Source of the DNA: a virus
Lineage: Duplodnaviria > Heunggongvirae > Uroviricota > Caudoviricetes
DNA: 40,925 bases
IMG/VR virus record: IMGVR_UViG_2585427787_000014
Direction: 5' to 3' (one strand)
The translations under genes and the position numbers were made by a program. Below the pieces are notes generated by a model. The model was not told the DNA's origin and ran no database searches. It was given only the letters and a program-made list of their open reading frames with translations. Positions 3,188-35,228 of this stretch are shown in pieces (positions within the stretch are counted from its first letter, which is position 1; each line of letters starts with the position of its first letter).

Positions 3188-3204
3188 GTTACCCATCAGG
3201 TAAT
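3188..3204. promoter_or_regulatory. 17-bp palindrome copy (GTTACC-CATCA-GGTAAT) upstream of the lysis cassette
   Basis: Read directly from the sequence; between the tailspike stop (3211) and the holin start (3092). Confidence 0.5.
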
Positions 3205-3210
3205 TTATAA

Positions 3211-4665
3211 TTATTGCAAATATCCTTTTTTGTTTTTTAGCATTCTCGTTAACGCCTCTGTCCATGAAGCCATGATACTGATTTGCCCCTCAACTGTAGG
3301 ATGGATGTTGTCACCATACCATCCTATGTTTGCTCCAAAGTTTCTGCGCATATCAGCAAATTCATAGCCATTTTGTATGCAGAACTTTTTCAGCGCATGA
3401 GTATATTTTGCATGCGCGGCATAGTTAGCAGTAGTTACACCGTGAATACCACTATGCTCCTTAGTAGTAAAAATTGGGAAAATGCCAAAAACAGGGATAG
3501 CACCTGCGGCAACTATTTTATTTGCTATAGTCTGAACGTTTGTTACATACTGAGCTACAGCGGTACCACCTTGCTGGTCGTTAGTTCCTATCATACAAAG
3601 TACAACATCATGAGGTGAGTAATCTGTTGTTGAGCCTTCACCGGAAGACCAATAGGATGAACTGGTACCACTTACAGCATAATTTGTAATTGATACCTTA
3701 CCTACGTTGTCTGAGTTCTGTATAAAAGATGGTAATAGTTTTGTTATATCGTTGCTGCACCATGCGCCATAGCTAATTGAGTCTCCTATTACCCCAATAT
3801 TCAACGGACGCTTAACTCTCACTTTATAGTTTGACGTTTTAAGACAATCCAAAAAAATAACACCTTTGGCATCGCCACTACCCAACAAAATGAATCCTGC
3901 GTTAGCTACGGCTCCATTGAATCTATAAACTGGAAAGCCGTTAATAATAAATGTCATTACTGAATCATTAACAACAAATCCAAGATTAACCTGCTGATTA
4001 CTAACCCATCCATACGCACCACCGTTAGGGAGGGTGTAGGACTCATTTATTGTTTGAGTTCCATAAAAATTAAATCCTTTAACCATTAAGGTTGCACTTG
4101 ACACTGTTACATATGCTAATATAACCTCGTTTGAGGTTTTTATAAATACACCACATGATTCAGACATTCCACTTGTAAACACATTGATCTCATAAAGAGA
4201 ACCATTCTCAAGTGATGTTGGGTATAGAACCTGTGGGTTCGCTGAGAAATCAGATGACCACGTCACAGTGCTTGATGTTACAATTCCTGTTCCTGAGATG
4301 CTAATGTCTCCTGTTGAAACATTATAGACTTTCTGATTCCAGCTCGTCAGATCCACAACAGAAGATAACTCATTTAGTGACATGTTAACTAAACCAGGAG
4401 CAACATTATACAACTCCTTCAAGTCAACGAATGTATTTGCAGGTTTAACTAAAGTTGTTCCACTTACAGGATTTTTAATTCTTAAATTTGTTAATAATAA
4501 CAAATCTTTTGTATTTGGATTTTCATCAATATTAAATGTTATACCATCATCAGCATGAATTTTCAATCCTGATAAATCAGGCCGACCGCCAGAAAAAAAA
4601 AACGGTACCAGCCCCGTCAAAGTATAATGTTTCTCCAATTTCTGAAAGATAACTACGGGCAGCAT
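3211..4665 (-). CDS. tailspike C-terminal part with SGNH/GDSL esterase domain (downstream frame of a split tailspike)
   Basis: 484-aa ORF. C-terminal SGNH hydrolase blocks: GDS (IGVIGDSISYG), GxND (CMIGTNDQQGG), DxxH (GDNIHPT). Overlaps upstream ORF 4577-5788 across a T10 run. AT-rich. Confidence 0.65.
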   Translation of the reverse strand: MLPVVIFQKLEKHYTLTGLVPFFFSGGRPDLSGLKIHADDGITFNIDENPNTKDLLLLTNLRIKNPVSGTTLVKPANTFVDLKELYNVAPGLVNMSLNELSSVVDLTSWNQKVYNVSTGDISISGTGIVTSSTVTWSSDFSANPQVLYPTSLENGSLYEINVFTSGMSESCGVFIKTSNEVILAYVTVSSATLMVKGFNFYGTQTINESYTLPNGGAYGWVSNQQVNLGFVVNDSVMTFIINGFPVYRFNGAVANAGFILLGSGDAKGVIFLDCLKTSNYKVRVKRPLNIGVIGDSISYGAWCSNDITKLLPSFIQNSDNVGKVSITNYAVSGTSSSYWSSGEGSTTDYSPHDVVLCMIGTNDQQGGTAVAQYVTNVQTIANKIVAAGAIPVFGIFPIFTTKEHSGIHGVTTANYAAHAKYTHALKKFCIQNGYEFADMRRNFGANIGWYGDNIHPTVEGQISIMASWTEALTRMLKNKKGYLQ

Positions 4666-5788
4666 TATATTGAGTGAAAGAATCTGTTACCCCATCATAC
4701 TTAATACCCCACTGCCTCGCCCTTGTCGGATATAAGGACTCTACATACATGCCACCTGCAATAGAAAATATATGCCCTCCATCATCAGTAGCGGATCCAC
4801 TGCGGATTACTCCAATATTTCCACCTCCATCATTCTTTGAGTAATAACCAGACCATTCAACCATCATTCCATTGTACGATGAGTCAAAAACAACATGGTG
4901 GGCATTAGATAACACGCCAGACCTTAGATCTGCTACTGTAGAGAAAGTCAGTTTTACAACATTATTGTCGAGGTAATTCTCAAGCGTTCCGAAGTACTTA
5001 TCGCCAATAAATGACGCCCCGTTACTGGACGCAAGATCAGACCTTAAGCTGGCATCGCCAACACTAAGCCACTTACCACTTCCTATCCCCCCTGTGCTCT
5101 CAGGTGTAGAGTCGGTGGGGACTACTTTTGGTAGTGTTCCATCCCACCTGAACCATTCGCCTGAGCTTTCCTGGAGAAGAACGTCGTTAGGATAGTTGAT
5201 GGTATTACCCAGCTCAAAAGACCTCTTCGTGTTATAGCCATACAGTCCATTCTTCAATGTATCAATGATAGTTGCCAATAGGTTACTCAAATCACGATAA
5301 AGATCATCAATATATTTTTTTGTAGCTGCATCTTGTGGCATAGACGGATCACGGAGGTTTCTTATATAGAATCCCAGCGCATCATAGAAACTGGCAATGC
5401 TGCTTGGTCTTTTTAGTGCCAATCTGTTATCACTAAAAGCCTGCTGAATTAGCATCGTCAGTTTATCAAAAGCATCTTCATGTACTTCTGCGAAGAACTT
5501 ACCCTGATTTCTGAGATCTGTTTCCTGGGTAACTGGCAACTCTCTGGATATCGAAATCTGATAACCATTAGCAAGAGGAGCAGACAAAACAACATTTCCT
5601 CCAGTGTATCCACCAGCGCCAGTTACCGTATAACCGGTATCCAGAACCAATTCTGTTACGTTCCCGTTCAGGTCAGACACCTGAACAACCAGGTCGGATT
5701 TTTTGAAAATACGGAAGGTATACGGAAATGATGTCGTAACGCCGTTACCTGTGTATTCGTTGTGGTCAACTTCGGTTGAGACCGTCAT
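4577..5788 (-). CDS. tailspike N-terminal (virion-attachment) part (upstream frame)
   Basis: 403-aa ORF ending five codons after the T10 run. N-terminus (MTVSTEVDHNEYTGNGVTTSFPYTFRIFKK...) matches my recollection of conserved tailspike head-binding domains of epsilon15/phiV10-like podoviruses. Confidence 0.65.
   Translation of the reverse strand: MTVSTEVDHNEYTGNGVTTSFPYTFRIFKKSDLVVQVSDLNGNVTELVLDTGYTVTGAGGYTGGNVVLSAPLANGYQISISRELPVTQETDLRNQGKFFAEVHEDAFDKLTMLIQQAFSDNRLALKRPSSIASFYDALGFYIRNLRDPSMPQDAATKKYIDDLYRDLSNLLATIIDTLKNGLYGYNTKRSFELGNTINYPNDVLLQESSGEWFRWDGTLPKVVPTDSTPESTGGIGSGKWLSVGDASLRSDLASSNGASFIGDKYFGTLENYLDNNVVKLTFSTVADLRSGVLSNAHHVVFDSSYNGMMVEWSGYYSKNDGGGNIGVIRSGSATDDGGHIFSIAGGMYVESLYPTRARQWGIKYDGVTDSFTQYNAARSYLSEIGETLYFDGAGTVFFFWRSA
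4593..4602. repeat. A10/T10 homopolymer at the junction of the two tailspike reading frames
   Basis: Ten consecutive A on the plus strand; both tailspike ORFs read through it (VFFF in the upstream frame, PFFF in the downstream frame). Confidence 0.9.
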
Positions 5789-5842
5789 GTTAAATCTCCA
5801 GATAGTCGCAGCACCCGTTGCGCCGCATATCTGGTTATTCTA

Positions 5843-5864
5843 TTACCCAAAAAACCACATATGG
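5843..5864. promoter_or_regulatory. conserved element TATTACC(C)AAwwwAACCACATATGr (copy B), upstream of tailspike
   Basis: Near-identical to 24884-24907; a partial match at 32062-32080. Confidence 0.4.
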
Positions 5865-5891
5865 ATAGAAAGACTGTAAATACGAATAGAT

Positions 5892-5908
5892 ATTACCTTT
5901 CGGGTAAT
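5892..5908. promoter_or_regulatory. 17-bp palindrome copy (ATTACC-TTTCG-GGTAAT)
   Basis: Perfect inverted repeat; in the divergent region between the tailspike start (5788) and gene 5985-6242. Confidence 0.55.
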
Positions 5909-5944
5909 TTGCAAAACGTGCTGGATAGCAAACAAATTATTTGA

Positions 5945-5964
5945 TACTGTATAAATATACAGTT
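5945..5964. promoter_or_regulatory. LexA (SOS) box
   Basis: TACTGTATAAATATACAGTT fits CTGT-N8-ACAG with an AT-rich spacer; ends 6 bp before the first ATG (5970) and 21 bp before the SD-preceded ATG (5985). Confidence 0.7.
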
Positions 5965-5984
5965 ATTGCATGGAGAAGATTAAG

Positions 5985-6242
5985 ATGCAGCAGTATCACT
6001 ATCCACTGGAAGACGGATTTACCGAAAGGATTCACACGCCGGGAGGCGTCAGGTCACTGGTGGAAGGATCGCACTTGATGAAATTACTCCGGGATCTCGA
6101 TAAGGATGGATTTAATGTCGATGGCCCACTTGCCGAACTGACTGCACTGATTAACTACGTCACCAGCTCACAGATGTCTATGCGGGATCTGCAAACACAT
6201 CTCGACTATTGTGCCGAACAATTACGAAAACAAACCAGATAA
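5985..6242 (+). CDS. small antirepressor-like protein; standalone homologue of the C-terminal domain of the Bro-N protein at 6558-7268
   Basis: GGAG Shine-Dalgarno 9 nt before ATG 5985 (alternative ATG at 5970). About 45% identity by eye over ~80 aa to the C-terminus of the 6558-7268 product (LMKLLRDLDKDGFNVDGPLAELT...RDLQTHLDY vs LMNLLNQLQDDGHDVSGAAAELT...RDIQTHAEY). Confidence 0.6.
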   Translation: MQQYHYPLEDGFTERIHTPGGVRSLVEGSHLMKLLRDLDKDGFNVDGPLAELTALINYVTSSQMSMRDLQTHLDYCAEQLRKQTR

Positions 6243-6272
6243 GGTTTGCAATTACCAAGTGGAGTGCTTATA

Positions 6273-6289
6273 TTTACCTTTGCGGTAAA
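6273..6289. promoter_or_regulatory. 17-bp palindrome copy (TTTACC-TTTGC-GGTAAA)
   Basis: Embedded in a longer imperfect inverted repeat (GGAGTGCT...AGCACTCC) just downstream of gene 5985-6242. Confidence 0.5.
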
Positions 6290-6379
6290 TTTACATAGCA
6301 CTCCTCTTGTGCCATAGTAATCGGGCACTGGCAAAATCCAGTGCCGGGATTGGCGTCCCGAGTTACTAAGTGGCGCATA

Positions 6380-6401
6380 CCACGCCAGACGTGGTTTTTT
6401 T
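6380..6401 (+). terminator. rho-independent terminator
   Basis: Stem CCACG / CGTGG with loop CCAGA, followed by T7. Confidence 0.55.
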
Positions 6402-6557
6402 ATGCGTTAAGCACAGCTATATCCGAATTATGGTGGGCTGGGCAGGGGTCCGAAAGGACGCCGGTACCACTTAGGCCGGTACGCCAACCTTGTCCAGTTC
6501 ACCACCAGTAATTGGCGTTGCGGTGGTGATTAAAATCACTAAGTGGAGATAACCACC

Positions 6558-7268
6558 ATGGCTAATGCTCAAACTGCCATCTTCAAATTTGAATCTGTTA
6601 ACCCTATCCGTTCCATCATTATCGATGGCCAACCATGGTTTGTAGCCCAAGACGTTTGTAGTGCGCTGCGTATCCAAAACGTCACCCAAGCACTTGAAAA
6701 ACTGGATGATGATGAAAGGTCTATGTTCAACATAGGGCATGAACATCGTGCAATTTTTGACAGCCGAGTAAAAGAGATCAACATCATCTCCGAGTCAGGC
6801 CTCTACACACTGATCCTCCGCTGCCGCGACGCAGTGACACCAGGCACTATCCCATACCGCTTTCGTAAATGGGTTACAGGTGAGGTTCTTCCTCAGATCC
6901 GCCGCACCGGAAGTTACATTAAAAACTCGCTCCCGCAGGAAGAGCGCATAAAGATGGTTGCCGACCAGGTAGCCAACGCCACAGCATCAGCAGTGATGCA
7001 GGCGATGAAGATAGAGAACAAAACCTACAGTGCCCCACTGAAGCCCGGCTACCGCAGCCTGATTCATTCGCCGTCTGGTGTTCTCGGCCTGACGGAGAAC
7101 TCACTGCTGATGAATCTGCTGAACCAGTTACAGGACGACGGGCACGACGTATCGGGCGCGGCGGCGGAGCTGACCACCATGTTCTGCTACATCGTCGGTG
7201 TGAGCAAATGCCTGCGTGATATCCAGACGCACGCGGAGTACATCAACGACAAGGCAGGGTTCTTCTGA
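6558..7268 (+). CDS. Bro-N domain antirepressor-like protein
   Basis: GGAG 9 nt before ATG 6558 (track ORF begins at GTG 6543). N-terminus (AIFKFESVNPIRSIIIDGQPWFVAQDVCSALRI...) has Bro-N/antirepressor character; C-terminal ~80 aa paralogous to the 5985-6242 product. Confidence 0.6.
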   Translation: MANAQTAIFKFESVNPIRSIIIDGQPWFVAQDVCSALRIQNVTQALEKLDDDERSMFNIGHEHRAIFDSRVKEINIISESGLYTLILRCRDAVTPGTIPYRFRKWVTGEVLPQIRRTGSYIKNSLPQEERIKMVADQVANATASAVMQAMKIENKTYSAPLKPGYRSLIHSPSGVLGLTENSLLMNLLNQLQDDGHDVSGAAAELTTMFCYIVGVSKCLRDIQTHAEYINDKAGFF

Positions 7269-7339
7269 CGGGCGGCGGCACAGGGATGTGCCTTTAAATA
7301 ATTCTGTACAGATTGCAGACTGTGGGTGAATAGCGTACT

Positions 7340-7356
7340 ATTACCTCAAGGGTAAA
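7340..7356. promoter_or_regulatory. 17-bp palindrome copy (ATTACC-TCAAG-GGTAAA)
   Basis: About 60 bp upstream of small ORF 7416-7595. Confidence 0.5.
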
Positions 7357-7415
7357 CGGATTGGTTTCATTTTTATTAATCCGTGTAATGAACTTATGAG
7401 ATATGAGGTAATGTC

Positions 7416-7595
7416 ATGCGAAACGAAAAATTGCAGATGCGTAGAGCGCAAGCTGCCGCAAGACGTTCTTTCAATGGAAGCGTAGAGTGCGTAAAAGTTA
7501 CTATGACAAAAGATCACGCAAGTCGCGTATCCCGCGCTTTCTTTGATTCTCGTAACAATAAGGAAAATTATGAGTTCGTCTGCGTCGCAGAATGA
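7416..7595 (+). CDS. small basic protein (59 aa) overlapping the start of the YafO-like gene; candidate antitoxin/regulator
   Basis: Not in the ORF track (<60 aa). ATG preceded by GAGGT; translation MRNEKLQMRRAQAAARRSFNGSVECVKVTMTKDHASRVSRAFFDSRNNKENYEFVCVAE; overlaps the next gene by 26 nt in another frame. Confidence 0.3.
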   Translation: MRNEKLQMRRAQAAARRSFNGSVECVKVTMTKDHASRVSRAFFDSRNNKENYEFVCVAE

Positions 7596-8115
7596 TAAAA
7601 ATCAAATTGTCAGATATAAGGGTCGAGTATTGCATACGCAAAATTTCTCGGCCCTTTGTGCATCTGATCTTGAGCTGAAGAAAGTATCTGATGCCTTTAC
7701 CCAGTATTGGAAAACGGGATACCATCCATCTCTTGGTAAAGATGCTGCATTTGCTCGTCCGACAGAAATGCTTAAACTAAATGTCAGGCATACTCATGTC
7801 GATAACCAAGACTATATTCCAGAAGATAGTGATAAAAAACACACTGGTAAAAAATCATCTTGGGATGCATGGAAAAAAATAGCGTCTGTGCAAGTAAAAT
7901 GCATACCAACAAGTAATTGCTTTTTAGTTTATTCGGTAAATCACAATCGTGATGCGCTGGTTATGTTTTTTGTTGACGCAGATGCCCACAACATAACTGA
8001 GCAAGAAGAGTTTAAAGAGGCAGCAATCACTATCAGTTATCAATTCTTTGAGAAAACAAAAACAGAACCAATGCCTTTAGAAGAAGATCTTTTTTCTGAT
8101 AAATGGAAGGAATAA
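7570..8115 (+). CDS. YafO-family toxin-like protein (type II TA-like candidate)
   Basis: AAGGA before ATG 7570 (track start 7543). Translation resembles E. coli YafO as I recall it (SLGKDAAF...NVRHTHV...CFLVYSV). AT-rich; has its own terminator. Confidence 0.45.
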   Translation: MSSSASQNDKNQIVRYKGRVLHTQNFSALCASDLELKKVSDAFTQYWKTGYHPSLGKDAAFARPTEMLKLNVRHTHVDNQDYIPEDSDKKHTGKKSSWDAWKKIASVQVKCIPTSNCFLVYSVNHNRDALVMFFVDADAHNITEQEEFKEAAITISYQFFEKTKTEPMPLEEDLFSDKWKE

Positions 8116-8136
8116 GCCCGCGCCGCGGGCTTTTTT
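8116..8136 (+). terminator. rho-independent terminator after the YafO-like gene
   Basis: GC-rich stem GCCCGCG / CGCGGGC followed by T6. Confidence 0.65.
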
Positions 8137-8370: not shown

Positions 8371-8375
8371 AAACA

Positions 8376-8393: not shown

Positions 8394-8401
8394 GTGACAT
8401 G

Positions 8402-25609: not shown

Positions 25610-26500
25610 ATGCTTGACTTCATCCGTGACATTTACTCCTCTTTCCGCCAAGCATCTCTTGAGCGGGTGAAAAGCCCGTTCCTTGGGGCATTTGTTTTTT
25701 CCTGGCTTTGCTTTAATTGGCAGATGTTAGCAATTCTATTTTTTAGTTCTAAGGATATTGAAAAGCGCCTTGCTATTATTAATGGCTCTTTCGGCATCGT
25801 CAGCTTTTTAATTGCGCCAATATGCACTACAGCATTGATAGTTATCCTTTTACCGCAAATTAATAAATTGATTACAATAATACAAGATAAACCTAACTCA
25901 GACACAATTGAAATGAGCCTTGCATCTAAAATAAAGATCGCCGAACTGCAGCAACTATTAGCAGAAAATGAAGCAAGAAAGAAACTTGCTGATAAAAAAG
26001 AAGAACGCTTCATTGAAGAGAATATTATTTCAATAAAAAAAGACCATGAAAAAGCAATAGATAACCTTAAAGACAAAGAAAGTAAAATCTCAAATCTCAC
26101 GGACACAATAACTGAACTTCAGAGCAAACTGGTTAAAGCTGAGGCCACTCTCAAAGTTGAACAGGAGTCAAGATCCCAAGTGCAGAATGAATTGATTATT
26201 GAAAAAGAGAACAAGCGGAAATTAGAAGACAACATTCTGCACCTTAATTTAAGTTTAAAAAAAAACCAATCAGAATTGGCCATTGCAAAAGAAGCCTATG
26301 ATAATACCTTGATGGCTTATAATGAACTTAACACAACATTAAAAAAAGCAGAAAGCTCAATAATAAACTTCAATGCTAACTTTCCTTTTTTAACTGACAT
26401 AAATAACAGCACCCCAAATACATACTTAAAAATAAATAAAAATGCATGGGAGCATTTAGTTAGTTTAAATTTAAGTCTAAAGGAGAAAATACAAAAATAA
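25610..26500 (+). CDS. AT-rich accessory gene: membrane-anchored coiled-coil protein of unknown function (candidate exclusion/defence gene)
   Basis: 296-aa ORF on the strand opposite the structural genes, inserted between terminase and portal. Two N-terminal hydrophobic helices, then a long K/E/L/N-rich heptad-like region. AT content visibly much higher than surrounding phage genes. Confidence 0.6.
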   Translation: MLDFIRDIYSSFRQASLERVKSPFLGAFVFSWLCFNWQMLAILFFSSKDIEKRLAIINGSFGIVSFLIAPICTTALIVILLPQINKLITIIQDKPNSDTIEMSLASKIKIAELQQLLAENEARKKLADKKEERFIEENIISIKKDHEKAIDNLKDKESKISNLTDTITELQSKLVKAEATLKVEQESRSQVQNELIIEKENKRKLEDNILHLNLSLKKNQSELAIAKEAYDNTLMAYNELNTTLKKAESSIINFNANFPFLTDINNSTPNTYLKINKNAWEHLVSLNLSLKEKIQK

Positions 26501-26523: not shown

Positions 26524-27993
26524 TTACTCATACGGGTCATAATCTATTATAGCCTTACCCTGCAGCTGGCGCGGATCATTAAGTTTTTTTGTGACCGGAA
26601 AAGCAAACGTCAGCAGCAGCGCGTCACCCTTGCCCGGCGAGCGGCCCAAGCGCTCTTTGATATCTTCCTTCGGCTCAATGACGATCTTGCCGTCCACCCT
26701 GACTTTGTACTCTGCCGCAGACAGGTCATCAGCCGTCTCCTGGTCGTCCAGCGCGCCGCCTAGCTTCAGCCACGTCTTGCAGCTGTTGAACATCTCTCCG
26801 CGCTTATTTAGCATCTGGGGATCGGTCGAGCCGCCGCCGAACGGGATTAGCTGCCATGTCCTGCCCCAGCCGTCACCGATGGACTTCAGCCCGGTGCCGT
26901 AACCGAAGTCGATGAACACCGCGTCAGCCTGGTACTGGTCTTCAAAGTCGGCGATTCGCTTAGCCATAATCAAATCGTCGGTGGTCTTGTTGCCGGTCCA
27001 GAGCACTTTGCTGTGCAGCCCTTGCCGCAGGTATATCACCGCGTCATCAACTCCGGAATACGCCGGGTCGACGCCGATAATCACAGGAGCGTGAGCAACC
27101 TGCCCGGCGGTAACCACCCGCTTCATGGCCTCGTCTGTAAGGCCTGTTGGGATAAACTGGAGTTCTGACGCGTCAGGGAAGATCCCCCGCACGCGGACCT
27201 TCACGAAGTCGCTGTCTTCGCCGTAGTCGTCAACCCATTTCTGCAGCTGCTGCTTGTTTGTGCCTTCCACGGTGCGGCTGTCAATCTGCGCGCACTTCCA
27301 GCGGTGCTTGTACTTGCGGAAGCATTCGCGGAAGCGCCCGGTGTTACGCGTCGGGTTCCCAAACGCCACCCAGATAATTTCCGTGTCTTCGTCCGTCAGC
27401 GCACCTTCAGCAACTTCCCACACCAGATCTGCAATGTTGGACGCTTCATCGAATACCACGATGATACGCTTACGCTCGTTGTGCAGCCCGGCGAACGCCT
27501 CTGTGTTGTGCTCAGACCACGGTATTGCGTCAGCTCGCCAGCGCTTGTCGTGGCCTGGGTCATTGCTGTACATCGCCGTGGCGGTGCAGGTGAACCACTC
27601 TTTCGTGATAGCCAGATTCGACCATTTGATGATTTCCGGCCATGTCTTGGTGCGCAGCTGGTTGTCGGTGTTGGCGGTCACCACGACCTTACAATCCTCG
27701 CAAGTGGACATGCCCCAGTTGATCAGCATTGAGATGAATGCGGATTTACCAATACCGTGACCAGAAGCGCGTGCCAGCATAAGCGGCTGATATCGCGTCT
27801 CTGGATTCTGCAGGTGATCACGTATCTCTCGGAACGCATCGGCCTGCCACTGACGTGGACCGGTGGCATGTGCCAGTTCAGTCCCCTCTTCCCCCCACGG
27901 GAACGCATAGAGGGCATAACCAAGCGGATCGTGAGTAAACCCTGCAATATCCTCGATCAACTGCTCTTCAGGAGATAACACTGTATCTGTCAC
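26524..27993 (-). CDS. terminase large subunit
   Basis: 489-aa ORF; N-terminal ATPase-like region (GHGIGKS...VFDEA) and C-terminal nuclease-like region; ATGA overlap with the upstream small-subunit gene. Confidence 0.8.
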   Translation of the reverse strand: MTDTVLSPEEQLIEDIAGFTHDPLGYALYAFPWGEEGTELAHATGPRQWQADAFREIRDHLQNPETRYQPLMLARASGHGIGKSAFISMLINWGMSTCEDCKVVVTANTDNQLRTKTWPEIIKWSNLAITKEWFTCTATAMYSNDPGHDKRWRADAIPWSEHNTEAFAGLHNERKRIIVVFDEASNIADLVWEVAEGALTDEDTEIIWVAFGNPTRNTGRFRECFRKYKHRWKCAQIDSRTVEGTNKQQLQKWVDDYGEDSDFVKVRVRGIFPDASELQFIPTGLTDEAMKRVVTAGQVAHAPVIIGVDPAYSGVDDAVIYLRQGLHSKVLWTGNKTTDDLIMAKRIADFEDQYQADAVFIDFGYGTGLKSIGDGWGRTWQLIPFGGGSTDPQMLNKRGEMFNSCKTWLKLGGALDDQETADDLSAAEYKVRVDGKIVIEPKEDIKERLGRSPGKGDALLLTFAFPVTKKLNDPRQLQGKAIIDYDPYE

Positions 27994-28586
27994 TGATTAC
28001 CATCCTGACGTTCTTTGAGTCGCTTCCTGGCTGCTGCTATGCGATCAGCAATTGTCACATTCACATTAACATCCAGGCGTTCTTTGAATGCGTTGACGTC
28101 GACGTGCTTACCAATCAGTTCGAGGTTCTTCACCTTGTCAGGCCATTTAATTTTTTTGAGGATTGTCTCTATCGAATCCTCGTTCATGTTCATGATGGTC
28201 GATGACAGATCAAAGCCGCTAAGCGTAGTGCGCCAGATTTTCGGCCACTCGCGGATTGGCTTAAGGCTCCCATCGTCGTTGAGGATGTCGATCACGTCCA
28301 TCTGGTCGATCTCCACCAGGCGCATGAGAACGTAATCAGCACTGACGCGCATTCGTTTGTTGCGCTCCTCCATCAACTCGGCAATCCGTTTTTGAATGCG
28401 TTCATCGCGCATCATGACACTGGCTTTAACTGCCGCTGTATTTGGGGAGAATCCTGCATTAATCGCTGCCTGAGTCTGGTTTTCAGGAGTTTTGATGTAT
28501 GACTGGCAATAAGCCTCCTGCATTGCTGTTAGTGGCTTAAATTGCGTTGATTTGCGTTTATAGGTTTTAGGTTCAGCAGGCATCAT
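27990..28586 (-). CDS. terminase small subunit
   Basis: Start taken at MMPAEPKTYK with GGTGG 4 nt upstream (track ORF extends to 28664). Basic helical protein directly upstream of the large subunit. Confidence 0.55.
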   Translation of the reverse strand: MMPAEPKTYKRKSTQFKPLTAMQEAYCQSYIKTPENQTQAAINAGFSPNTAAVKASVMMRDERIQKRIAELMEERNKRMRVSADYVLMRLVEIDQMDVIDILNDDGSLKPIREWPKIWRTTLSGFDLSSTIMNMNEDSIETILKKIKWPDKVKNLELIGKHVDVNAFKERLDVNVNVTIADRIAAARKRLKERQDGNQ

Positions 28587-28602
28587 AACCACCGTGGTAA
28601 TA

Positions 28603-28619
28603 GTTACCGTTGTGGTAAT
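28603..28619. promoter_or_regulatory. 17-bp palindrome copy (GTTACC-GTTGT-GGTAAT)
   Basis: Within direct repeats GTGGTAATAGTTACC / GTGGTAATAGTACC, 18 bp upstream of the proposed small-terminase start. Confidence 0.5.
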
Positions 28620-28660
28620 AGTACCATGCAAAATAAAGCCGCCATAGTTGGCGGCAGTAT

Positions 28661-28894
28661 TCAAAGTCCATCAAATTCATCGTAAAAACTCTCGTCAAGA
28701 TACCCTTCCCATTTACCGCGAATGAAAATTACATCCTCGCCGCAAGGGTGCTGACTGTCGATAACTATATCCCTCCTGGCGCAACCATACTTATGCATGA
28801 GAAATTTAACCTCTTTCGGAAAATTTGCTGAGTTATCTCTCATATCTTCAAGGTCGTAGCGTATTTTTGGCATAACACCTTCGTGACATGTCAC
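28661..28894 (-). CDS. hypothetical protein
   Basis: 77-aa ORF, ATGA-coupled to the upstream gene. Confidence 0.5.
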   Translation of the reverse strand: MTCHEGVMPKIRYDLEDMRDNSANFPKEVKFLMHKYGCARRDIVIDSQHPCGEDVIFIRGKWEGYLDESFYDEFDGL

Positions 28895-29238
28895 GCTATT
28901 AATTTCGTTTCATGCCAGCCTTTAGTCACCCAGCATTGCGAGTCACCATTACACGGGCATGAATTAACGGGAACTCTCTCGCCGCACTTACCGCAAAGTT
29001 TTCTGCTGATCGATTTTATACGCCCGCGCACACGTGCATCATCCTGGCGGATCAGCAGCGCGATGTACTCGGCCATTTCATAGGGATCGCGACCAGGGCG
29101 CCGGGCGGCGCAGTTCCGCGCCAGCATTTCCTGCTCCTGCTTATCCAGCACCAGTTCAATTTTGCGCTCACCGGCGGCGGACTGCCGAGCGCGCTGCGCG
29201 GCTTTGCGTTCTGCGGGGGATTTAGCCACGAATCGCAC
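28891..29238 (-). CDS. Cys-rich (zinc-finger-like) basic protein; possible late regulator
   Basis: 115-aa ORF with CGKCG...CPCNGDSQC cluster and a basic N-terminus; lies just before the packaging genes. Confidence 0.45.
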   Translation of the reverse strand: MRFVAKSPAERKAAQRARQSAAGERKIELVLDKQEQEMLARNCAARRPGRDPYEMAEYIALLIRQDDARVRGRIKSISRKLCGKCGERVPVNSCPCNGDSQCWVTKGWHETKLIA

Positions 29239-30646: not shown

Positions 30647-30647
30647 C

Positions 30648-31636: not shown

Positions 31637-31697
31637 CTTTACCCTCGCTTATCCACATAACTTATTGATTACATTGATAACTAAAAAGATCGTCGAT

Positions 31698-32042
31698 TCA
31701 GAACTCTTCGATGTTCCAGCCACCACCTGCTTTCTTTGGCTTAACCGTTACCCCGATGATTCGGAACGGATACTGATCTGCGGCGACTTTGGTTTTCACC
31801 CTGGCGTCGTCGGTCCAGAAACCTTTCACTTCGTGCAGTTCCATCTCGCCGGTGGCGAGCATCACAGCAAAATCGGGCGTATAGAACGTGTTATCAGCTA
31901 ACCGCAGCTTGATACCCTCGAATCGATACCAGGCGATTTCCCCTGCACGTTTACGCTGCTCAAGGTGCTGGCAATACGCAGATTCTGTTTTGTTCATCTG
32001 TCCTGTTTTGAGTCGACCAAGAGCCTGTATCTGTTTTCTCAT
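31698..32042 (-). CDS. DUF1064-like phage protein
   Basis: 114-aa ORF; start codon immediately preceded by a palindrome copy that overlaps the ribosome-binding region. Confidence 0.45.
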   Translation of the reverse strand: MRKQIQALGRLKTGQMNKTESAYCQHLEQRKRAGEIAWYRFEGIKLRLADNTFYTPDFAVMLATGEMELHEVKGFWTDDARVKTKVAADQYPFRIIGVTVKPKKAGGGWNIEEF

Positions 32043-32044
32043 GA

Positions 32045-32061
32045 TTTACCCCTGAGGTAAT
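32045..32061. promoter_or_regulatory. 17-bp palindrome copy (TTTACC-CCTGA-GGTAAT) abutting a start codon
   Basis: Ends 3 nt from the ATG of gene 31698-32042; adjacent to the AAAAACCACATAAGA element (32062-32080). Confidence 0.5.
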
Positions 32062-32106
32062 TAAAAACCACATAAGACATGAAATCAATAGATTTTAGAA
32101 TATTTT

Positions 32107-32123
32107 ATTACCCAACAGGTAAT
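32107..32123. promoter_or_regulatory. 17-bp palindrome copy (ATTACC-CAACA-GGTAAT)
   Basis: Perfect; between the P-like gene stop (32160) and gene 31698-32042. Confidence 0.55.
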
Positions 32124-32159
32124 TATCGAGACGTAAAAAAATGCGCTATCGCGCTGGTA

Positions 32160-32945: not shown

Positions 32946-33757
32946 AAGAAATCCTCCCACGCTTCAGGGCTGTTCCAGTGCGGAACGTTGTTATCAGGTA
33001 ATGTTGATTGCTTCTGTCTGCTAATCTGCAGCCGCCTTGCCAGCTTCTGCTCCCACTGTGCCTGATGGTATGCCTTACCCTCAGCCATCCAGTAAATTCT
33101 GAACTCTGCAAGTTCCTGTGCCGTTGGCAGACTGTCCAGGTAGATCCCCTGCAATGAGCTTTTCCGAAGAAAGTCATCTGATGGCTGCCATTGTTCATGC
33201 ATGACAAATTTGCCTAATTGCCCTGGCCCACCAGGAGGAGCAAAGTTATTCATCACGGCGTTGTTTGCGCCGGGGTCATGAGGCACAGAATCCCCGCTTT
33301 TTGTCCTGCTCTCCCTCTCTTGGTTAAATGACTGGTTATATGACTGGTTCTGGATCCCGTTTTTGGGATCATTCAACATCCCGTTTTTGGGATCATTCAA
33401 CATCCCGTTTTTGGGTATATTACCGTTTTCGGTAACATTACCGTTTTCGGGTTCATTGCCCCTCTCCCGGTTGCCTTTAATGTTCCCGTTTTTGGTTATA
33501 TTAAGAGAGAAAACCCGCACCCTTTTTGTCGCTCCCTTTCTCTCTCCGGTATCTGAAATAAGCCCCATTTTCATGAGCGATATAAGCCCGGCCTGCACGG
33601 TTTTTTTATTCAGGCAAGTGTCTTTAACGAGGCGTTCTATGCTGGGGTAGCAGAGGTTATATTCATCGGCTCTGTCAGCCATCGAGAGCAGTATGAGCTT
33701 TAATGACGAGCTACCTGGATCTGTCTCCCAGGCCCAATCTGTTGCATGTCTGCTCAT
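32942..33757 (-). CDS. replication initiator (lambda O-like) with HTH N-domain and internal repeat region
   Basis: 271-aa ORF; N-terminal HTH-like region (LKLILLSMADRADEYNLCYPSIERLVKDTCLNKKTVQAGLISL), central repeat-encoded segment (KNGMLNDP x2), immediately upstream of the P-like gene. Confidence 0.6.
   Translation of the reverse strand: MSRHATDWAWETDPGSSSLKLILLSMADRADEYNLCYPSIERLVKDTCLNKKTVQAGLISLMKMGLISDTGERKGATKRVRVFSLNITKNGNIKGNRERGNEPENGNVTENGNIPKNGMLNDPKNGMLNDPKNGIQNQSYNQSFNQERESRTKSGDSVPHDPGANNAVMNNFAPPGGPGQLGKFVMHEQWQPSDDFLRKSSLQGIYLDSLPTAQELAEFRIYWMAEGKAYHQAQWEQKLARRLQISRQKQSTLPDNNVPHWNSPEAWEDFL
33353..33460. repeat. iteron-like tandem direct repeats inside the O-like gene (candidate origin)
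   Basis: Two perfect 24-bp units (GATCCCGTTTTTGGGATCATTCAA / CATCCCGTTTTTGGGATCATTCAA) plus a degenerate third, then two 18-bp units (ATTACCGTTTTCGGTAAC / ATTACCGTTTTCGGGTTC); a further CCCGTTTTTGG copy at about 33484. Confidence 0.6.
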
Positions 33758-33772
33758 GATTAATCTCCGCTA

Positions 33773-33973
33773 TCAGCTTGAATGTTGTGGGGAGGAATTA
33801 ATCATGATCTGCTTAATCTCTGCCCTGATACGACGGTTTGATTCCATGGTGCACTCAACACAGTGTCCGTTGTAAACCCAGCGTTCACTGTCATGTCCGT
33901 GCTTACATGGTTTTCCGGTGTAGTAGCGTTTAAGTCCGCGCTTTGCGGCATCAATACGTGTAATGATTTCCAT
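33773..33973 (-). CDS. small Cys/His-rich (zinc-binding-like) protein in the CII position
   Basis: Start taken at MEIITRID...; the track ORF begins at a TTG at 34036 and an ATG at 34009 is also possible. Contains CKHGHDSERWVYNGHCVEC. Confidence 0.4.
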   Translation of the reverse strand: MEIITRIDAAKRGLKRYYTGKPCKHGHDSERWVYNGHCVECTMESNRRIRAEIKQIMINSSPQHSS

Positions 33974-34052
33974 GGTAAGCCCTGTTATTAGTATTGGGAT
34001 TACGGTCATTTTGTGCTGACACAAAAAAAAGATCAACCAGATTTGGTTATTT

Positions 34053-34069
34053 ATTACCTTTGAGGTACG
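34053..34069. promoter_or_regulatory. 17-bp palindrome copy, imperfect (ATTACC-TTTGA-GGTACG)
   Basis: Between a hairpin after the Cro-like gene and the next gene. Confidence 0.4.
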
Positions 34070-34083
34070 AATAGATATGAAAA

Positions 34084-34100
34084 GACCGCCGGATGGCGGC
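34084..34100 (-). terminator. hairpin terminator after the Cro-like gene (tR1-like position)
   Basis: Stem CCGCC / GGCGG with loop GGAT; on the minus strand followed by TCTTTTCAT. Confidence 0.4.
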
Positions 34101-34123
34101 CTACAGAGGGTTGTGGCTGGATA

Positions 34124-34354
34124 TCATGAGTAGAAGAAGTATGCCAGTTCTGCTTTTGAGCGCAGCCATTGTCTTGTTTTACAGGCTTTAAAAAGCCCAT
34201 TCATCAATACCTTACCTGGCATTTTGCGCTTACCTGTTAAGTGAGTCTGGATATAGTGACTCGTCGTTCCGGCTTCCTGTGCGAAGGCTTCACGCTCGTC
34301 CGGAGTAAGTGCAAGCCAGTGCTTTTTGAAATCGAAATGTCCGTTATCGCTCAT
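34124..34354 (-). CDS. Cro-like small HTH regulator (first gene of the replication-side operon)
   Basis: 76-aa ORF with HTH-like segment (REAFAQEAGTTSHYIQTHLTGKRKMP); divergent from the CI-like gene across an operator-rich region. Confidence 0.55.
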   Translation of the reverse strand: MSDNGHFDFKKHWLALTPDEREAFAQEAGTTSHYIQTHLTGKRKMPGKVLMNGLFKACKTRQWLRSKAELAYFFYS

Positions 34355-34389
34355 AGCTATTGCCTGATATTTATTTCAGATAATAAATA

Positions 34390-34406
34390 TTCACCCATAA
34401 GGTAAC
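34390..34406. promoter_or_regulatory. operator-like palindrome, imperfect (TTCACC-CATAA-GGTAAC); site 1 of 3 in the divergent switch region
   Basis: 37 bp upstream of the Cro-like start. Confidence 0.45.
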
Positions 34407-34420
34407 AAAAATCAAGGATA

Positions 34421-34437
34421 GTTACCTATGAGGTGCA
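34421..34437. promoter_or_regulatory. operator-like palindrome, imperfect (GTTACC-TATGA-GGTGCA); site 2 of 3
   Basis: Directly abuts site 3. Confidence 0.4.
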
Positions 34438-34454
34438 TTTACCTGTTGGGTAAT
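34438..34454. promoter_or_regulatory. operator-like palindrome (TTTACC-TGTTG-GGTAAT); site 3 of 3
   Basis: 55 bp upstream of the CI-like ATG (34509); same spacer TGTTG as the copy at 35150. Confidence 0.5.
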
Positions 34455-34508
34455 ATTGCTTTAAATTGAATCATCTACTGATTCATATATGAGGCGATTT
34501 TCCAGAAA

Positions 34509-35093
34509 ATGAAAAGTATCCAGGACGTCCGCAGGCAAAATCTCAACGACTTGATCGACCGTGAATTCAATGGTGTTCAGACGCGGATGGCAGAAAAACT
34601 TGGAACTCAGGCAAATCTGGTAAACCGCTGGGCTCTTGGCAAGAAGGTTATCGGCGACCAGGTTGCGCGAAAAATTGAAGCTGCCGCCAATAAACCCCGT
34701 AACTGGCTTGATATCGATCGCTCGCTTTCTCAGGAAGGTTTTCAGCCTGTCGGCCCGAGTGATATAGGTCAGCTGGCTGCTCACAACCTGGAACGCTGGA
34801 TGAGCGAAAGCCGCGACCTTTCAACGCAGGGAAAACTACACCGCGCATCCGGCGTCGCCCAGGTGACAATCAGCCGCCTGTTAAACAATGAGGTCAGCGT
34901 TTCCATTTCCACCCTGGAGAATGTTGCATCCGCATTCGGGCGTCATGGCTATGAATTACTGATTCACCCGCACGACCCTGCGACTATCAACTATGACCGC
35001 TCGCGCTACGCATTGTTACCCGAAACCGAGAAAGCAAAGATCGAAAGTTACATTGAATTTGTCATCAACCAGAACGAAAAAAACAAACAATAA
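34509..35093 (+). CDS. CI-like repressor with two HTH (XRE-type) domains and no recognisable peptidase domain
   Basis: 194-aa ORF; HTH-like segments near residues 20-60 (GVQTRMAEKLGTQANLVNRWALGKK) and 95-150 (LHRASGVAQVTISRLLNNEV); no LexA/S24-like Ser-Lys region seen; followed by a terminator. Confidence 0.55.
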   Translation: MKSIQDVRRQNLNDLIDREFNGVQTRMAEKLGTQANLVNRWALGKKVIGDQVARKIEAAANKPRNWLDIDRSLSQEGFQPVGPSDIGQLAAHNLERWMSESRDLSTQGKLHRASGVAQVTISRLLNNEVSVSISTLENVASAFGRHGYELLIHPHDPATINYDRSRYALLPETEKAKIESYIEFVINQNEKNKQ

Positions 35094-35114
35094 AACTATA
35101 GTTTTCAGCAAGTA

Positions 35115-35136
35115 AGCCGCCTCATGGCGGCTTTTT
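35115..35136 (+). terminator. rho-independent terminator after the repressor gene
   Basis: Stem GCCGCC / GGCGGC with loop TCAT, followed by T6. Confidence 0.65.
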
Positions 35137-35149
35137 TATTGCCTGTTAG

Positions 35150-35166
35150 ATTACCTGTTGGGTAAT
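35150..35166. promoter_or_regulatory. operator-like palindrome (ATTACC-TGTTG-GGTAAT), upstream site of the leftward-type early promoter
   Basis: Perfect; about 20 bp upstream of a TTGACA hexamer (35186-35191). Confidence 0.55.
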
Positions 35167-35211
35167 TTTTTTAACTCATATCTATTGACATCAAACCAGA
35201 TACGCATAATT

Positions 35212-35228
35212 ATTACCTCAACGGTAAC
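35212..35228. promoter_or_regulatory. operator-like palindrome (ATTACC-TCAAC-GGTAAC) overlapping the putative -10 region
   Basis: Starts 20 bp after TTGACA and ends 18 bp before ATG 35247. Confidence 0.55.

What the first reader, a model, noticed from the sequence alone, without database searches (positions are those of the whole stretch)
3188..35228. A 17-bp palindrome (ATTACC-N5-GGTAAT) recurs about 15 times, always intergenic or at gene starts
By eye I found copies at 3188, 5892, 6273, 7340, 24947, 25562, 28603, 32045, 32107, 34053, 34390, 34421, 34438, 35150 and 35212. Eleven have an exact TTACC-N5-GGTAA core (the copy at 3188 begins GTTACC); the copy at 34390 has one mismatch, those at 34053 and 34421 have two. 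For a fixed 10-position core under uniform base composition I estimate well under one chance occurrence in 41 kb. Copies sit in front of the lysis cassette, tailspike, both antirepressor-like genes, the YafO-like unit, the head genes, the AT-rich accessory gene, the small terminase, and the nin-like genes. Three clustered copies lie in the divergent CI/Cro-like region, and two flank a TTGACA hexamer before the recombination operon. This is a dispersed operator network, reminiscent of the multi-operator control known for phage P1 C1 repressor rather than the two-operator lambda layout. A 6-nt-spacer variant (ATTACCGTTTTCGGTAAC) sits inside the iteron region.
Basis: seen in the sequence. Interest (0 to 1): 0.85.

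Follow-up and report, generated by a model that had tools for sequence, protein, structure and literature searches.

The report
Known repressor operators of an epsilon15-like prophage
The repeated 17-bp palindrome is real and is almost certainly the binding site of this E. coli prophage's main repressor, but the same scattered sites are already annotated as repressor-binding sites in the related Salmonella phage epsilon15, so the finding is correct but not new.

Summary
TTACC-N5-GGTAA occurs 12 times exactly (0.03 expected) and 16 times counting degenerate copies. All copies lie in the 6.6% of the window that is non-coding.

The window is a phiV10/epsilon15-type (Uetakevirus) prophage integrated at guaA. 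Its immunity region is present in 562 of 5426 complete E. coli genomes. The CI-like gene (34509-35093) is a full-length homologue of the Salmonella phage SPC32H repressor Rep (PDB 5D50_A, E=4e-42). The gene at 5970-6242 is the SPC32H antirepressor Ant (5D50_E, E=1.6e-46) and sits behind a LexA box.

The same palindrome occupies the same syntenic positions in phiV10, epsilon15, SPC32H, Tyrion and dozens of IMG/VR contigs. The arms are conserved while the spacer and flanks drift. The epsilon15 RefSeq record already labels these sites as repressor-binding sites.

So the dispersed-operator reading is supported but already known. The resemblance to P1 C1 is functional only.

- There are 12 exact cores, not 11.
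- One extra copy lies at 28585.
- The 6-nt-spacer variant is part of an origin iteron array.
- Three copies next to late genes sit 57-80 bp upstream of the inferred promoters, so how they act is open.

Noticed in passing: a second conserved palindrome (AWCCATATRTGGTT) at late promoters, and isrK-like and C4 RNAs behind one operator.

The parts
34509..35093 (+). rep: CI-like repressor. It has an N-terminal HTH DNA-binding domain and a C-terminal tetramerisation/Ant-binding region, and no S24 autocleavage domain.
   Evidence: Matches PDB 5D50_A (SPC32H Rep) at E=4e-42 over residues 1-190. Pfam gives HTH hits only.
34124..34354 (-). cro-like small HTH gene, divergent from rep
   Evidence: phrog_35 'transcriptional repressor', E=5.6e-13. 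Weak HTH similarity to the Rep N-terminal domain.
34390..34406 (.). Operator, switch region (TTCACCCATAAGGTAAC). It overlaps the -35/spacer of the cro-like promoter.
   Evidence: Promoter-like TTGTTA-17-TATTAT at 34408-34380 on the minus strand.
34421..34437 (.). Degenerate operator, switch region (GTTACCTATGAGGTGCA). It is 31 bp from 34390 and abuts 34438.
   Evidence: A syntenic copy is present in phiV10, Tyrion, SPC32H and epsilon15.
34438..34454 (.). Operator, switch region next to rep (TTTACCTGTTGGGTAAT)
35150..35166 (.). Upstream operator of the early-left (recombination operon) promoter, 62 bp from its partner
   Evidence: The 62-bp pair is conserved in phiV10, epsilon15, SPC32H, Tyrion, L063 and L080.
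35185..35213 (+). Early-left promoter TTGACA-17-AATTAT. The last two bases of its -10 are the first two of operator 35212.
   Evidence: 10 of 12 matches.
35212..35228 (.). Downstream operator of the early-left promoter, covering the -10/+1 region
32107..32123 (.). Upstream operator of the nin-like/late-regulator operon promoter (minus strand)
32045..32061 (.). Downstream operator of the same promoter (TTGATT-17-TTTAAT on the minus strand), covering -10/+1 and ending 2 nt before the ATG of gene 31698-32042
   Evidence: The hexamers were read from the sequence.
34053..34069 (.). Operator (1 core mismatch) between the cro terminator and the p42/replication genes. The second palindrome follows it after 4 nt.
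28603..28619 (.). Operator upstream of terS (minus strand), just after the terminator of the preceding operon
28585..28601 (.). Second, degenerate operator, 1 nt upstream of the terS ATG (28583).
25562..25578 (.). Operator over the spacer/-10 of a promoter-like GTGACT-17-TAATAT in front of the 296-aa accessory gene (25610-26500)
   Evidence: The hexamers were read from the sequence.
24947..24963 (.). Operator in the divergent head-gene / tRNA region. It overlaps the -10 position of a rightward promoter whose TTGACA (24927-24932) lies a fixed 15 nt away in all compared relatives.
25285..25361 (+). tRNA-Arg(UCU), downstream of operator 24947
   Evidence: Rfam tRNA 73.3 bits. ARAGORN.
7340..7356 (.). 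Operator over -10/+1 of a promoter-like TTGCAG-17-TACTAT in front of the 59-aa/YafO-like unit (7416-8115)
   Evidence: YafO_toxin Pfam hit at E=7.6e-5, below the curated cutoff.
6273..6289 (.). Operator over -10/+1 of the promoter TTGCAA-17-TATATT (6246-6274), which drives isrK-like RNA, C4 RNA and the Bro-N gene
6325..6401 (+). isrK-like Hfq-binding sRNA ending in an intrinsic terminator
   Evidence: Rfam RF01394, 67.2 bits against a gathering score of 50. Terminator at 6379-6395.
6426..6509 (+). C4 antisense RNA (P1 immI-type)
   Evidence: Rfam RF01695, 66 bits against a gathering score of 45.
6543..7268 (+). Bro-N domain (large antirepressor-like) gene
   Evidence: Pfam Bro-N, E=1e-19.
5892..5908 (.). 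Operator in the divergent tailspike / ant region. It is centred about -57 from the inferred P_ant start and about -67 from the inferred tailspike start.
5945..5963 (+). LexA box TACTGTATAAATATACAGT over the -10 of P_ant (TGGATA 5922-5927, 17 nt, TACTGT 5945-5950)
   Evidence: Sequence. The hexamers and their spacing are conserved in 5 relatives.
5970..6242 (+). ant: small antirepressor
   Evidence: Matches PDB 5D50_E (SPC32H Ant) at E=1.6e-46.
3188..3204 (.). Operator between the tailspike 3' end and the lysis cassette, about 70 bp upstream of the inferred lysis promoter start

Best explanation
The palindrome (A)TTACC-N5-GGTAA(T) is the operator of the prophage repressor Rep (34509-35093). Rep is the phiV10/epsilon15/SPC32H-type repressor: it is non-cleavable and forms a tetramer, and its N-terminal HTH domains pair up on each dyad.

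In the lysogen, Rep occupies a genome-wide set of 16 sites:
- three in the rep/cro-like switch region;
- two 62-bp pairs that bracket the early-left and nin-operon promoters, with the downstream member covering -10/+1;
- two adjacent sites in front of terS;
- single sites over the core promoters of the isrK-C4-Bro module, the YafO-like unit, the 296-aa accessory gene and a tRNA-Arg unit;
- three sites (lysis, tailspike/ant, p42) that do not overlap an identifiable core promoter. These presumably act through looping or cooperativity, or block upstream contacts.

Induction does not go through RecA cleavage of Rep. DNA damage removes LexA from the box over P_ant, Ant (5970-6242) is made, it binds the Rep C-terminal domain, and Rep is pulled off all operators at once.

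What is shown here: the motif statistics, its confinement to non-coding DNA, its conservation, the protein homologies and the promoter-like hexamers. What is inferred from homologues and not tested for this prophage: binding by Rep, repression at each individual site, and the Ant/LexA circuit.
For: - Enrichment: 12 exact copies against 0.03 expected. All 16 copies lie in the 6.6% non-coding DNA.
- Rep matches 5D50_A at E=4e-42 over its full length. Ant matches 5D50_E at E=1.6e-46. A LexA box sits over the conserved P_ant hexamers. Rep has no S24 domain.
- The epsilon15 RefSeq record annotates seven 'protein_bind, repressor, lysogeny' features, before terS, the head genes, the tailspike, the recombination operon (three sites) and the resolvase gene. 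They coincide with TTACC-N5-GGTAA matches.
- The same motif sits at syntenic positions in phiV10, SPC32H, Tyrion and IMG/VR loci whose Rep is only 41-45% identical.
- Anchored comparisons show conserved arms while the N5 spacer and upstream flanks are unconserved (frequency table).
- The operator overlaps -10/+1 at several promoters with one common geometry, in which the -10 hexamer ends on operator position 2.
- Host DNA lacks the motif: 0 exact copies in 50 kb plus about 15 kb of flank.
- In vB_EcoP_ZX5, whose repressor is reported as identical in sequence to phiV10's, repressor overexpression cut endolysin and holin transcripts by >99.9% (PMC9782041).
- SPC32H Rep binds palindromic sites as a tetramer and is released by Ant (PMC9638917; PMC9986798).
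Against: - There is no binding or reporter data for this prophage.
- I could not read the primary papers (Kropinski 2007; Kim & Ryu 2013; Kim 2016). The exact operator sequence shown experimentally for SPC32H is therefore not verified here.
- The epsilon15 features are themselves predictions.
- Three sites (3188, 5892, 34053) lie outside any identifiable core promoter, so simple occlusion cannot explain them.
- All relatives found share both Rep and the motif. No covariation test (changed recognition helix with changed site) was possible, and the cro-like HTH protein cannot be excluded as a co-user of the sites.
Confidence: 0.85

Rival explanations
1. The palindrome is mainly the site of the cro-like protein (34124-34354), or is shared by Cro and Rep as in lambda. 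On this reading the dispersed copies reflect a lytic-phase turn-down of transcription rather than lysogenic repression.
For: The cro-like protein falls in a PHROG of transcriptional repressors. It shows weak HTH-level similarity to the Rep N-terminal domain (27% over 41 aa). Three copies lie between rep and cro, where a Cro protein would be expected to act.
Against: The recognition-helix residues differ between the two proteins. The epsilon15 annotation assigns the sites to the repressor. The operator pairs fit a tetramer with two DNA-binding pairs. Shared use would add to the main explanation rather than replace it.
Confidence: 0.07
2. The repeat acts at the RNA level, as a short hairpin in 5' leaders or as a terminator or processing signal, or it is simply part of a shared promoter sequence. 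It is not a protein operator.
For: Six-nucleotide arms with a 5-nt loop could fold in RNA. Several copies would be transcribed if the TSS lies within or just upstream of them. The GGTAAT arm often contributes TAAT to a -10-like hexamer.
Against: - The arms are invariant rather than showing compensatory changes, and the spacer is W-rich and variable.
- Copies occur in both orientations relative to transcription.
- Some copies are upstream partners at -62 that would not be transcribed.
- Isolated half-sites show no enrichment in non-coding DNA.
Confidence: 0.03
3. The motif is a generic host-factor site, or the target of a DNA-modification enzyme (for example the prophage MT-A70 methyltransferase), and has nothing to do with immunity.
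For: The prophage encodes an adenine methyltransferase homologue (phiV10 annotation; RefSeq annotation).
Against: - Host DNA shows chance-level counts: 0 exact and 1 one-mismatch copy in 50 kb against 1.0 expected, and none in the guaA-side flank.
- A methylation target would not avoid coding DNA.
- The copies are tied to promoter geometry.
Confidence: 0.02

Closest known systems
Putative gp38 repressor binding sites of Salmonella phage epsilon15 (RefSeq NC_004775; Kropinski et al. 2007, Virology 369:234, not readable here)
   Same: The core TTACC-N5-GGTAA is identical. The positions are the same: before terS, the head genes, the tailspike, the lysis genes, the recombination operon and the resolvase/nin operon, plus the rep/cro switch. 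The 62-bp pairs are the same. The repressor is homologous.
   Different: The Rep proteins are only about 42% identical overall. epsilon15 has a third site at its early-left promoter. It lacks the isrK/C4/Bro module, the YafO-like unit and the 296-aa gene that carry operators here. The RefSeq record annotates only 7 of the 11 exact matches.
Salmonella phage SPC32H Rep-Ant-LexA antirepression switch (Kim & Ryu 2013; Kim et al. 2016; PDB 5D50 and 5D4Z)
   Same: Rep and Ant are orthologous (E=4e-42 and 1.6e-46). A LexA box covers the ant promoter. The palindrome sits at the same syntenic sites.
   Different: The published work, as far as I could read it second-hand, centres on the switch and on Ant-mediated disassembly. 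PMC9986798 states that the structural mechanism of repression is not extensively characterised.
Phage P1 C1 repressor with its many scattered operators, and the immI (c4-icd-ant) module
   Same: One repressor controls many dispersed transcription units. An antirepressor-type operon preceded by a C4 antisense RNA sits behind one of the operators.
   Different: P1 operators are asymmetric 17-mers (ATTGCTCTAATAAATTT; from my own knowledge) and none occurs here. C1 is unrelated to this HTH tetramer. No Lxc/Coi-type modulators were seen.
Lambda/P22 CI-Cro switch (tripartite OL and OR)
   Same: Repressor and cro genes are divergent with three operators between them. An early-left promoter is also controlled. 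The operators are dyad-symmetric 17-mers.
   Different: There are at least 8 further operator locations outside OL/OR. Rep has no S24 autocleavage domain. Induction goes through an antirepressor. The early promoters carry 62-bp bracketing pairs instead of three adjacent sites.
Mycobacteriophage L5 gp71 'stoperators'
   Same: Many repressor sites are spread over the whole genome in short intergenic spaces.
   Different: L5 sites are asymmetric 13-mers oriented with transcription, and they act on elongation (my own knowledge). The sites here are symmetric and mostly overlap promoter cores.

Membership tests
Uetakevirus (epsilon15/phiV10/SPC32H) Rep operator network | A Rep-family repressor (N-terminal HTH, C-terminal tetramerisation/Ant-binding domain) encoded divergently from a cro-like gene | tested here: met
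   5D50_A at E=4e-42 over residues 1-190. Gene order rep/cro as in phiV10, epsilon15 and SPC32H.
Uetakevirus (epsilon15/phiV10/SPC32H) Rep operator network | The operator consensus equals the sites annotated as repressor-binding in epsilon15 | tested here: met
   The epsilon15 protein_bind features coincide with TTACC-N5-GGTAA matches. The core is the same in the window.
Uetakevirus (epsilon15/phiV10/SPC32H) Rep operator network | Sites at the same syntenic positions, with conserved arms and a drifting spacer and flanks | tested here: met
   Frequency table.
Uetakevirus (epsilon15/phiV10/SPC32H) Rep operator network | Ant antirepressor under LexA control | tested here: met
   5D50_E at E=1.6e-46. 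CTGT-N8-ACAG box at 5947-5962 over the conserved TACTGT -10.
Uetakevirus (epsilon15/phiV10/SPC32H) Rep operator network | Physical binding of Rep to the palindrome and repression of the adjacent promoters | not testable with these tools
   This needs EMSA, footprinting, ChIP or reporter assays. Only indirect support exists, from the ZX5 overexpression data.
Phage P1 C1 operator network | Asymmetric 17-bp operator ATTGCTCTAATAAATTT (consensus from my own knowledge) | tested here: not met
   0 matches at <=3 mismatches. The sites here are symmetric.
Phage P1 C1 operator network | A C1-family repressor protein | tested here: not met
   The repressor is a Cro/C1-type HTH protein homologous to SPC32H Rep. 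Nothing links it to P1 C1.
Phage P1 C1 operator network | An immI-type module (C4 antisense RNA upstream of an antirepressor gene) under repressor control | tested here: met
   Rfam C4 at 66 bits (6426-6509), between the operator 6273 promoter and the Bro-N gene. This is a shared module, not evidence of family membership.
Lambda-type CI/Cro immunity | Repressor with an S24 peptidase domain that RecA-stimulated autocleavage inactivates | tested here: not met
   No Peptidase_S24 hit. The full-length alignment is to the non-cleavable SPC32H Rep.
Lambda-type CI/Cro immunity | Operators confined to OL and OR | tested here: not met
   16 sites in 11 intergenic regions.

The most novel reading that the evidence does not exclude
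The Rep operators are only half of the regulatory layout. A second, apparently undescribed palindrome, AWCCATATRTGGTT, sits exactly 7 nt upstream of invariant -10-like hexamers at the lysis, tailspike and head promoters. It also lies in the spacers of the two early promoters that Rep brackets, and 4 nt from the operator at p42.

If a second phage regulator binds it, that regulator could switch early promoters off and late promoters on. Candidates are the conserved 115-aa protein with a Cys-rich C-terminus encoded just before terS, and the cro-like protein. In that case the Rep sites at late-gene regions would really serve the divergent promoters (tRNA, accessory genes) or act by looping between sites spaced 31 and 62 bp apart.
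Probability: 0.3. Interest if true: 0.45.

Novelty: already known. Interest (0 to 1): 0.2.

Why it matters
It matters little as a discovery. The same sites are annotated in epsilon15, and the Rep/Ant/LexA switch has been solved structurally in SPC32H.

It does have practical value:
- This prophage type is in about 10% of complete E. coli genomes.
- The phiV10 and RefSeq E. coli records carry no operator annotation.
- A review-level source says the repression mechanism of this Rep family is not well characterised.

The map given here states which sites cover core promoters, which form 62-bp brackets and which sit far upstream. It gives concrete targets for ChIP-seq and reporter work on how a tetrameric, antirepressor-controlled repressor silences a whole prophage.

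Tried and rejected
- **Primary literature.** Kropinski 2007 (PMC2698709 and its DOI), Kim & Ryu 2013 (PMC3807360) and Kim 2016 (PMC4983836) are not held. Full-text searches for the motif strings found nothing relevant.
- **Covariation between the Rep recognition helix and the operator.** All 80 IMG/VR loci recovered through the p55-like protein, and the reference phages, share the same motif even at 41-45% Rep identity. No informative variant was found.
- **Mosaic or unrelated contigs.** L077 keeps the late-region sites but has an unrelated early arm within 10 kb. L050 has a p55 homologue in an unrelated phage, with neither motif. Neither is decisive.
- **Half-site enrichment.** This was tested as a sign of extra weak Rep sites at late -10 regions and rejected: 2.9 per kb in both coding and non-coding DNA.
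- **P1 operator consensus.** Absent.
- **Host-element hypothesis.** Rejected.
- **Sigma-70 promoters for operators 3188, 5892 and 34053.** I could not assign any with confidence. Several candidate hexamer pairs were considered and dropped because they are not conserved among relatives.
- **PDB sequence searches.** The p55-like and cro-like proteins found nothing. PADLOC found nothing for the accessory genes.
- **Not run.** I did not run structure prediction or the large protein-database searches, because they would not change the verdict on the finding.

Full report
**Observation**

An exact scan for TTACC-N5-GGTAA finds 12 copies, against 0.03 expected from dinucleotide-preserving shuffles. 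There are 15 copies at one mismatch or fewer, against 0.64 expected.

Small corrections apply. Twelve copies, not eleven, have the exact core. Copy 34053 has one core mismatch. A sixteenth copy at 28585-28601 was missed. Only four copies are perfect ATTACC-N5-GGTAAT 17-mers.

With a curated gene map, all 16 copies fall in the 6.6% of the window that is neither CDS nor RNA gene. The chance of that for the 12 exact copies is about 7e-15, and 11 of the 18 intergenic gaps of at least 40 nt hold a copy. Isolated half-sites are equally frequent in coding and non-coding DNA, so the full dyad is what is restricted.

The 6-nt-spacer variant at 33420-33435 is one unit of an 18-bp tandem iteron array inside the replication-initiator gene. 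It is not part of the family.

**What the window is**

The window is a phiV10/epsilon15-type podovirus prophage (genus Uetakevirus). It is 97-98% identical to phiV10 across the early region and about 92% across the tail/lysis region.

A near-identical copy in an E. coli chromosome sits next to guaA, the known phiV10 attachment site (PMC9782041). The immunity region is present in 562 of 5426 complete E. coli genomes.

**Who binds the palindrome**

The CI-like gene (34509-35093) aligns over its whole length with the repressor Rep of Salmonella phage SPC32H (PDB 5D50 chain A, E=4e-42). It has HTH hits only and no S24 autocleavage domain.

The 90-aa gene at 5970-6242 is the SPC32H antirepressor Ant (5D50 chain E, E=1.6e-46). 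A canonical LexA box, TACTGTATAAATATACAGT (5945-5963), lies in front of it. The box covers a TGGATA-17-TACTGT promoter whose hexamers and spacing are conserved in all five compared phages.

Secondary sources describe SPC32H Rep as a tetramer that binds palindromic sites through pairs of N-terminal domains. They describe Ant as a tetramer that breaks the Rep tetramer (PMC9638917). They also report a p53-like looping-type tetramerisation domain whose DNA-binding pairs lie about 100 Å apart (PMC9986798).

**Already known**

The RefSeq record of epsilon15 carries seven 'protein_bind, repressor, lysogeny' features. They lie before terS, the head genes, the tailspike, the recombination operon (three sites) and the resolvase gene. 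These coincide with TTACC-N5-GGTAA matches in that genome: 11 exact copies against about 0.6 expected at one mismatch or fewer.

phiV10 has 8 exact copies plus 6 one-mismatch copies. SPC32H has 10 exact copies. Tyrion and dozens of IMG/VR contigs carry them too, including contigs whose Rep is only 41-45% identical.

Comparisons anchored on the operator show invariant arms, a W-rich variable spacer and unconserved upstream flanks. That is the footprint expected of a dimeric protein site.

From memory, unverified because the paper is not held, Kropinski et al. 2007 described this inverted repeat as the putative gp38 operator.

Host DNA does not carry the motif. There are no copies in about 15 kb of guaA-side flank. 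In 50 kb elsewhere in the same chromosome there are 0 exact copies and 1 one-mismatch copy, against 1.0 expected.

**Anatomy and likely mechanism**

The promoter assignments below come from reading hexamers and from their conservation. They are inferences.

- *Switch region.* The sites at 34390, 34421 and 34438 are spaced 31 and 17 bp apart. Site 34390 overlaps the cro-like promoter (TTGTTA-17-TATTAT). Site 34438 lies next to rep.
- *Two bracketed promoters with the same design.* Each has an upstream operator, then 20 nt, a -35 hexamer, a 17-nt spacer, and a -10 hexamer whose last two bases are the first two of the downstream operator. The operator centres are 62 bp apart. This holds for the early-left promoter (35150/35212, TTGACA-17-AATTAT) and for the nin/late-regulator operon (32107/32045). 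The 62-bp spacing is conserved in every relative examined.
- *Other sites with the same '-10 ends on operator position 2' geometry.* These are the isrK-C4-Bro promoter (6273; TTGCAA-17-TATATT), the YafO-like unit (7340) and terS (28603, followed by 28585 and then the ATG).
- *Site 25562.* It covers the spacer and -10 of GTGACT-17-TAATAT, in front of a 296-aa gene of unknown function.
- *Site 24947.* It lies 15 nt downstream of a TTGACA (24927-24932) on the strand opposite the head genes. That arrangement is conserved in all six compared genomes and points toward a tRNA-Arg(UCU) at 25285-25361.
- *Sites without a core promoter.* Three sites do not overlap any core promoter I could identify. Site 3188 is about 70 bp upstream of the inferred lysis promoter start. 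Site 5892 is about -57 from the inferred P_ant start and about -67 from the inferred tailspike start. Site 34053 lies between the cro terminator and the replication genes.

It makes sense that Rep does not sit on P_ant. Otherwise LexA cleavage could not trigger induction.

The overall model is that Rep silences essentially every transcription unit of the prophage, and that Ant, released from LexA control, strips Rep from all sites at once. In vB_EcoP_ZX5, whose repressor is reported as identical in sequence to phiV10's, repressor overexpression reduced endolysin and holin transcripts by more than 99.9% (PMC9782041).

**Comparison with known systems**

This is the epsilon15/SPC32H system, and all testable defining features are met.

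The P1 C1 comparison is an analogy of layout. The P1 operator consensus is absent, the sites are symmetric, and the repressor is unrelated. One P1-like module is present, however. A C4 antisense RNA (66 bits) and an isrK-like sRNA (67 bits) lie between operator 6273 and a Bro-N gene. That cassette is also common in Stx phages.

It differs from lambda in three ways. It has many extra operator locations, it lacks an S24 domain, and it is induced through an antirepressor.

**Seen in passing**

A second palindrome, AWCCATATRTGGTT, gives 8 strand hits at 6 places for CANATNNGGTT, against 1.2 expected. It lies exactly 7 nt upstream of invariant -10-like hexamers at three promoters: lysis (TATGAT), tailspike (TAATAG) and head (TAATAA). 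The 7-nt linker varies between relatives.

Partial copies occupy the spacers of the two bracketed early promoters, and these copies are full in Tyrion. A full copy lies 4 nt from operator 34053.

No paper in the held library mentions it. Two candidate binders exist. One is a conserved 115-aa protein with a Cys-rich C-terminus encoded just before terS (phrog_536 'transcriptional regulator'). The other is the cro-like protein. One unrelated contig carries a homologue of the 115-aa protein without the motif, which is weak evidence against that candidate.

**Verdict**

Interest is low. What remains open is how the sites far upstream of promoters act, and what the second palindrome does.

Noticed in passing
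window 3146-3159, 5853-5866, 24896-24909, 34035-34048; partial copies at 35194-35207 and 32066-32079; 6233-6246 (overlaps the ant stop codon): A second conserved palindrome, AWCCATATRTGGTT, gives 8 strand hits against 1.2 expected. It sits exactly 7 nt upstream of invariant -10-like hexamers (TATGAT, TAATAG, TAATAA) at the lysis, tailspike and head promoters. It also lies in the spacer of the two early promoters that Rep brackets, and 4 nt from operator 34053. It is conserved in phiV10, epsilon15, SPC32H, Tyrion and IMG/VR relatives. No paper in the held library mentions it. It may be the site of a late regulator (the 115-aa protein at 28891-29238) or of the cro-like protein.
   Followed up: partly
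window 6325-6401 and 6426-6509 (+): An isrK-like Hfq-binding sRNA (Rfam 67 bits) and a C4 antisense RNA (66 bits) lie in tandem between the operator 6273 promoter and the Bro-N antirepressor-like gene (6543-7268). This is a P1 immI / Gifsy-1 IsrK-type module placed under the Rep operator. The cassette is also found in many Stx phages and in APSE-2.
   Followed up: partly
window 5922-5963: A LexA box, TACTGTATAAATATACAGT, lies over the -10 of a conserved TGGATA-17-TACTGT promoter for the SPC32H-type ant gene. The nearby Rep operator (5892) is 13 nt upstream of the -35 and does not overlap the promoter.
   Followed up: yes
window 25285-25361 (+), with TTGACA at 24927-24932: A tRNA-Arg(UCU) lies on the strand opposite the late genes, with two terminators after it (25405-25440 and 25525-25540). 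It lies downstream of a conserved TTGACA whose -10 position is covered by operator 24947. The ORF 25291-25530 on the minus strand is therefore spurious.
   Followed up: partly
window 34390/34421/34438, 35150/35212, 32045/32107 and 28585/28603: The centre-to-centre spacings of the operators are 31, 17, 62, 62 and 18 bp. Both 62-bp pairs are conserved across the genus. The DNA-binding pairs of the SPC32H Rep tetramer are reported to be about 100 Å apart (PMC9986798), which is close to 31 bp of straight DNA.
   Followed up: no
L086 26345-26359 and phiV10 (L001) 26869-26885, just beyond the window's right end: A further one-mismatch copy (ATTACCTTAAAGGTATA) lies between attP/guaA and the integrase start in relatives. 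The window ends at the integrase start codon, so this copy is not included.
   Followed up: no
window 27990-28664: The longest terS ORF (TTG start, 224 aa, as annotated in phiV10) would contain both terS operators. Alignment with epsilon15, SPC32H and Tyrion places the real start at the ATG at 28583, immediately after the operators. The phiV10-style start therefore looks mis-annotated.
   Followed up: partly
window 3211-5788 (-): The tailspike is split into two overlapping ORFs. One is a conserved N-terminal head-binding part (4577-5788). The other is an AT-rich C-terminal part with a GDSL esterase domain (3211-4665, Pfam E=2.6e-19). This is either a frameshift or a two-gene receptor-binding module. 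There is no oac gene here, unlike phiV10.
   Followed up: no
window 34356-34390, in the cro-like 5' leader: An 8-nt inverted repeat, ATATTTAT-N8-ATAAATAT, lies between operator 34390 and the cro-like start codon. It is conserved in Tyrion and phiV10 but not in SPC32H or epsilon15.
   Followed up: no
window 1-1071 (+): Two genes lie beyond the lysis cassette. One is a glycine-zipper/TraT-like lipoprotein and the other a DUF5384 protein. They are absent from phiV10 and present in TL-2011b. They are probably accessory genes (morons) at the prophage end. No Rep operator lies in the 217-nt gap at 1072-1288.
   Followed up: no
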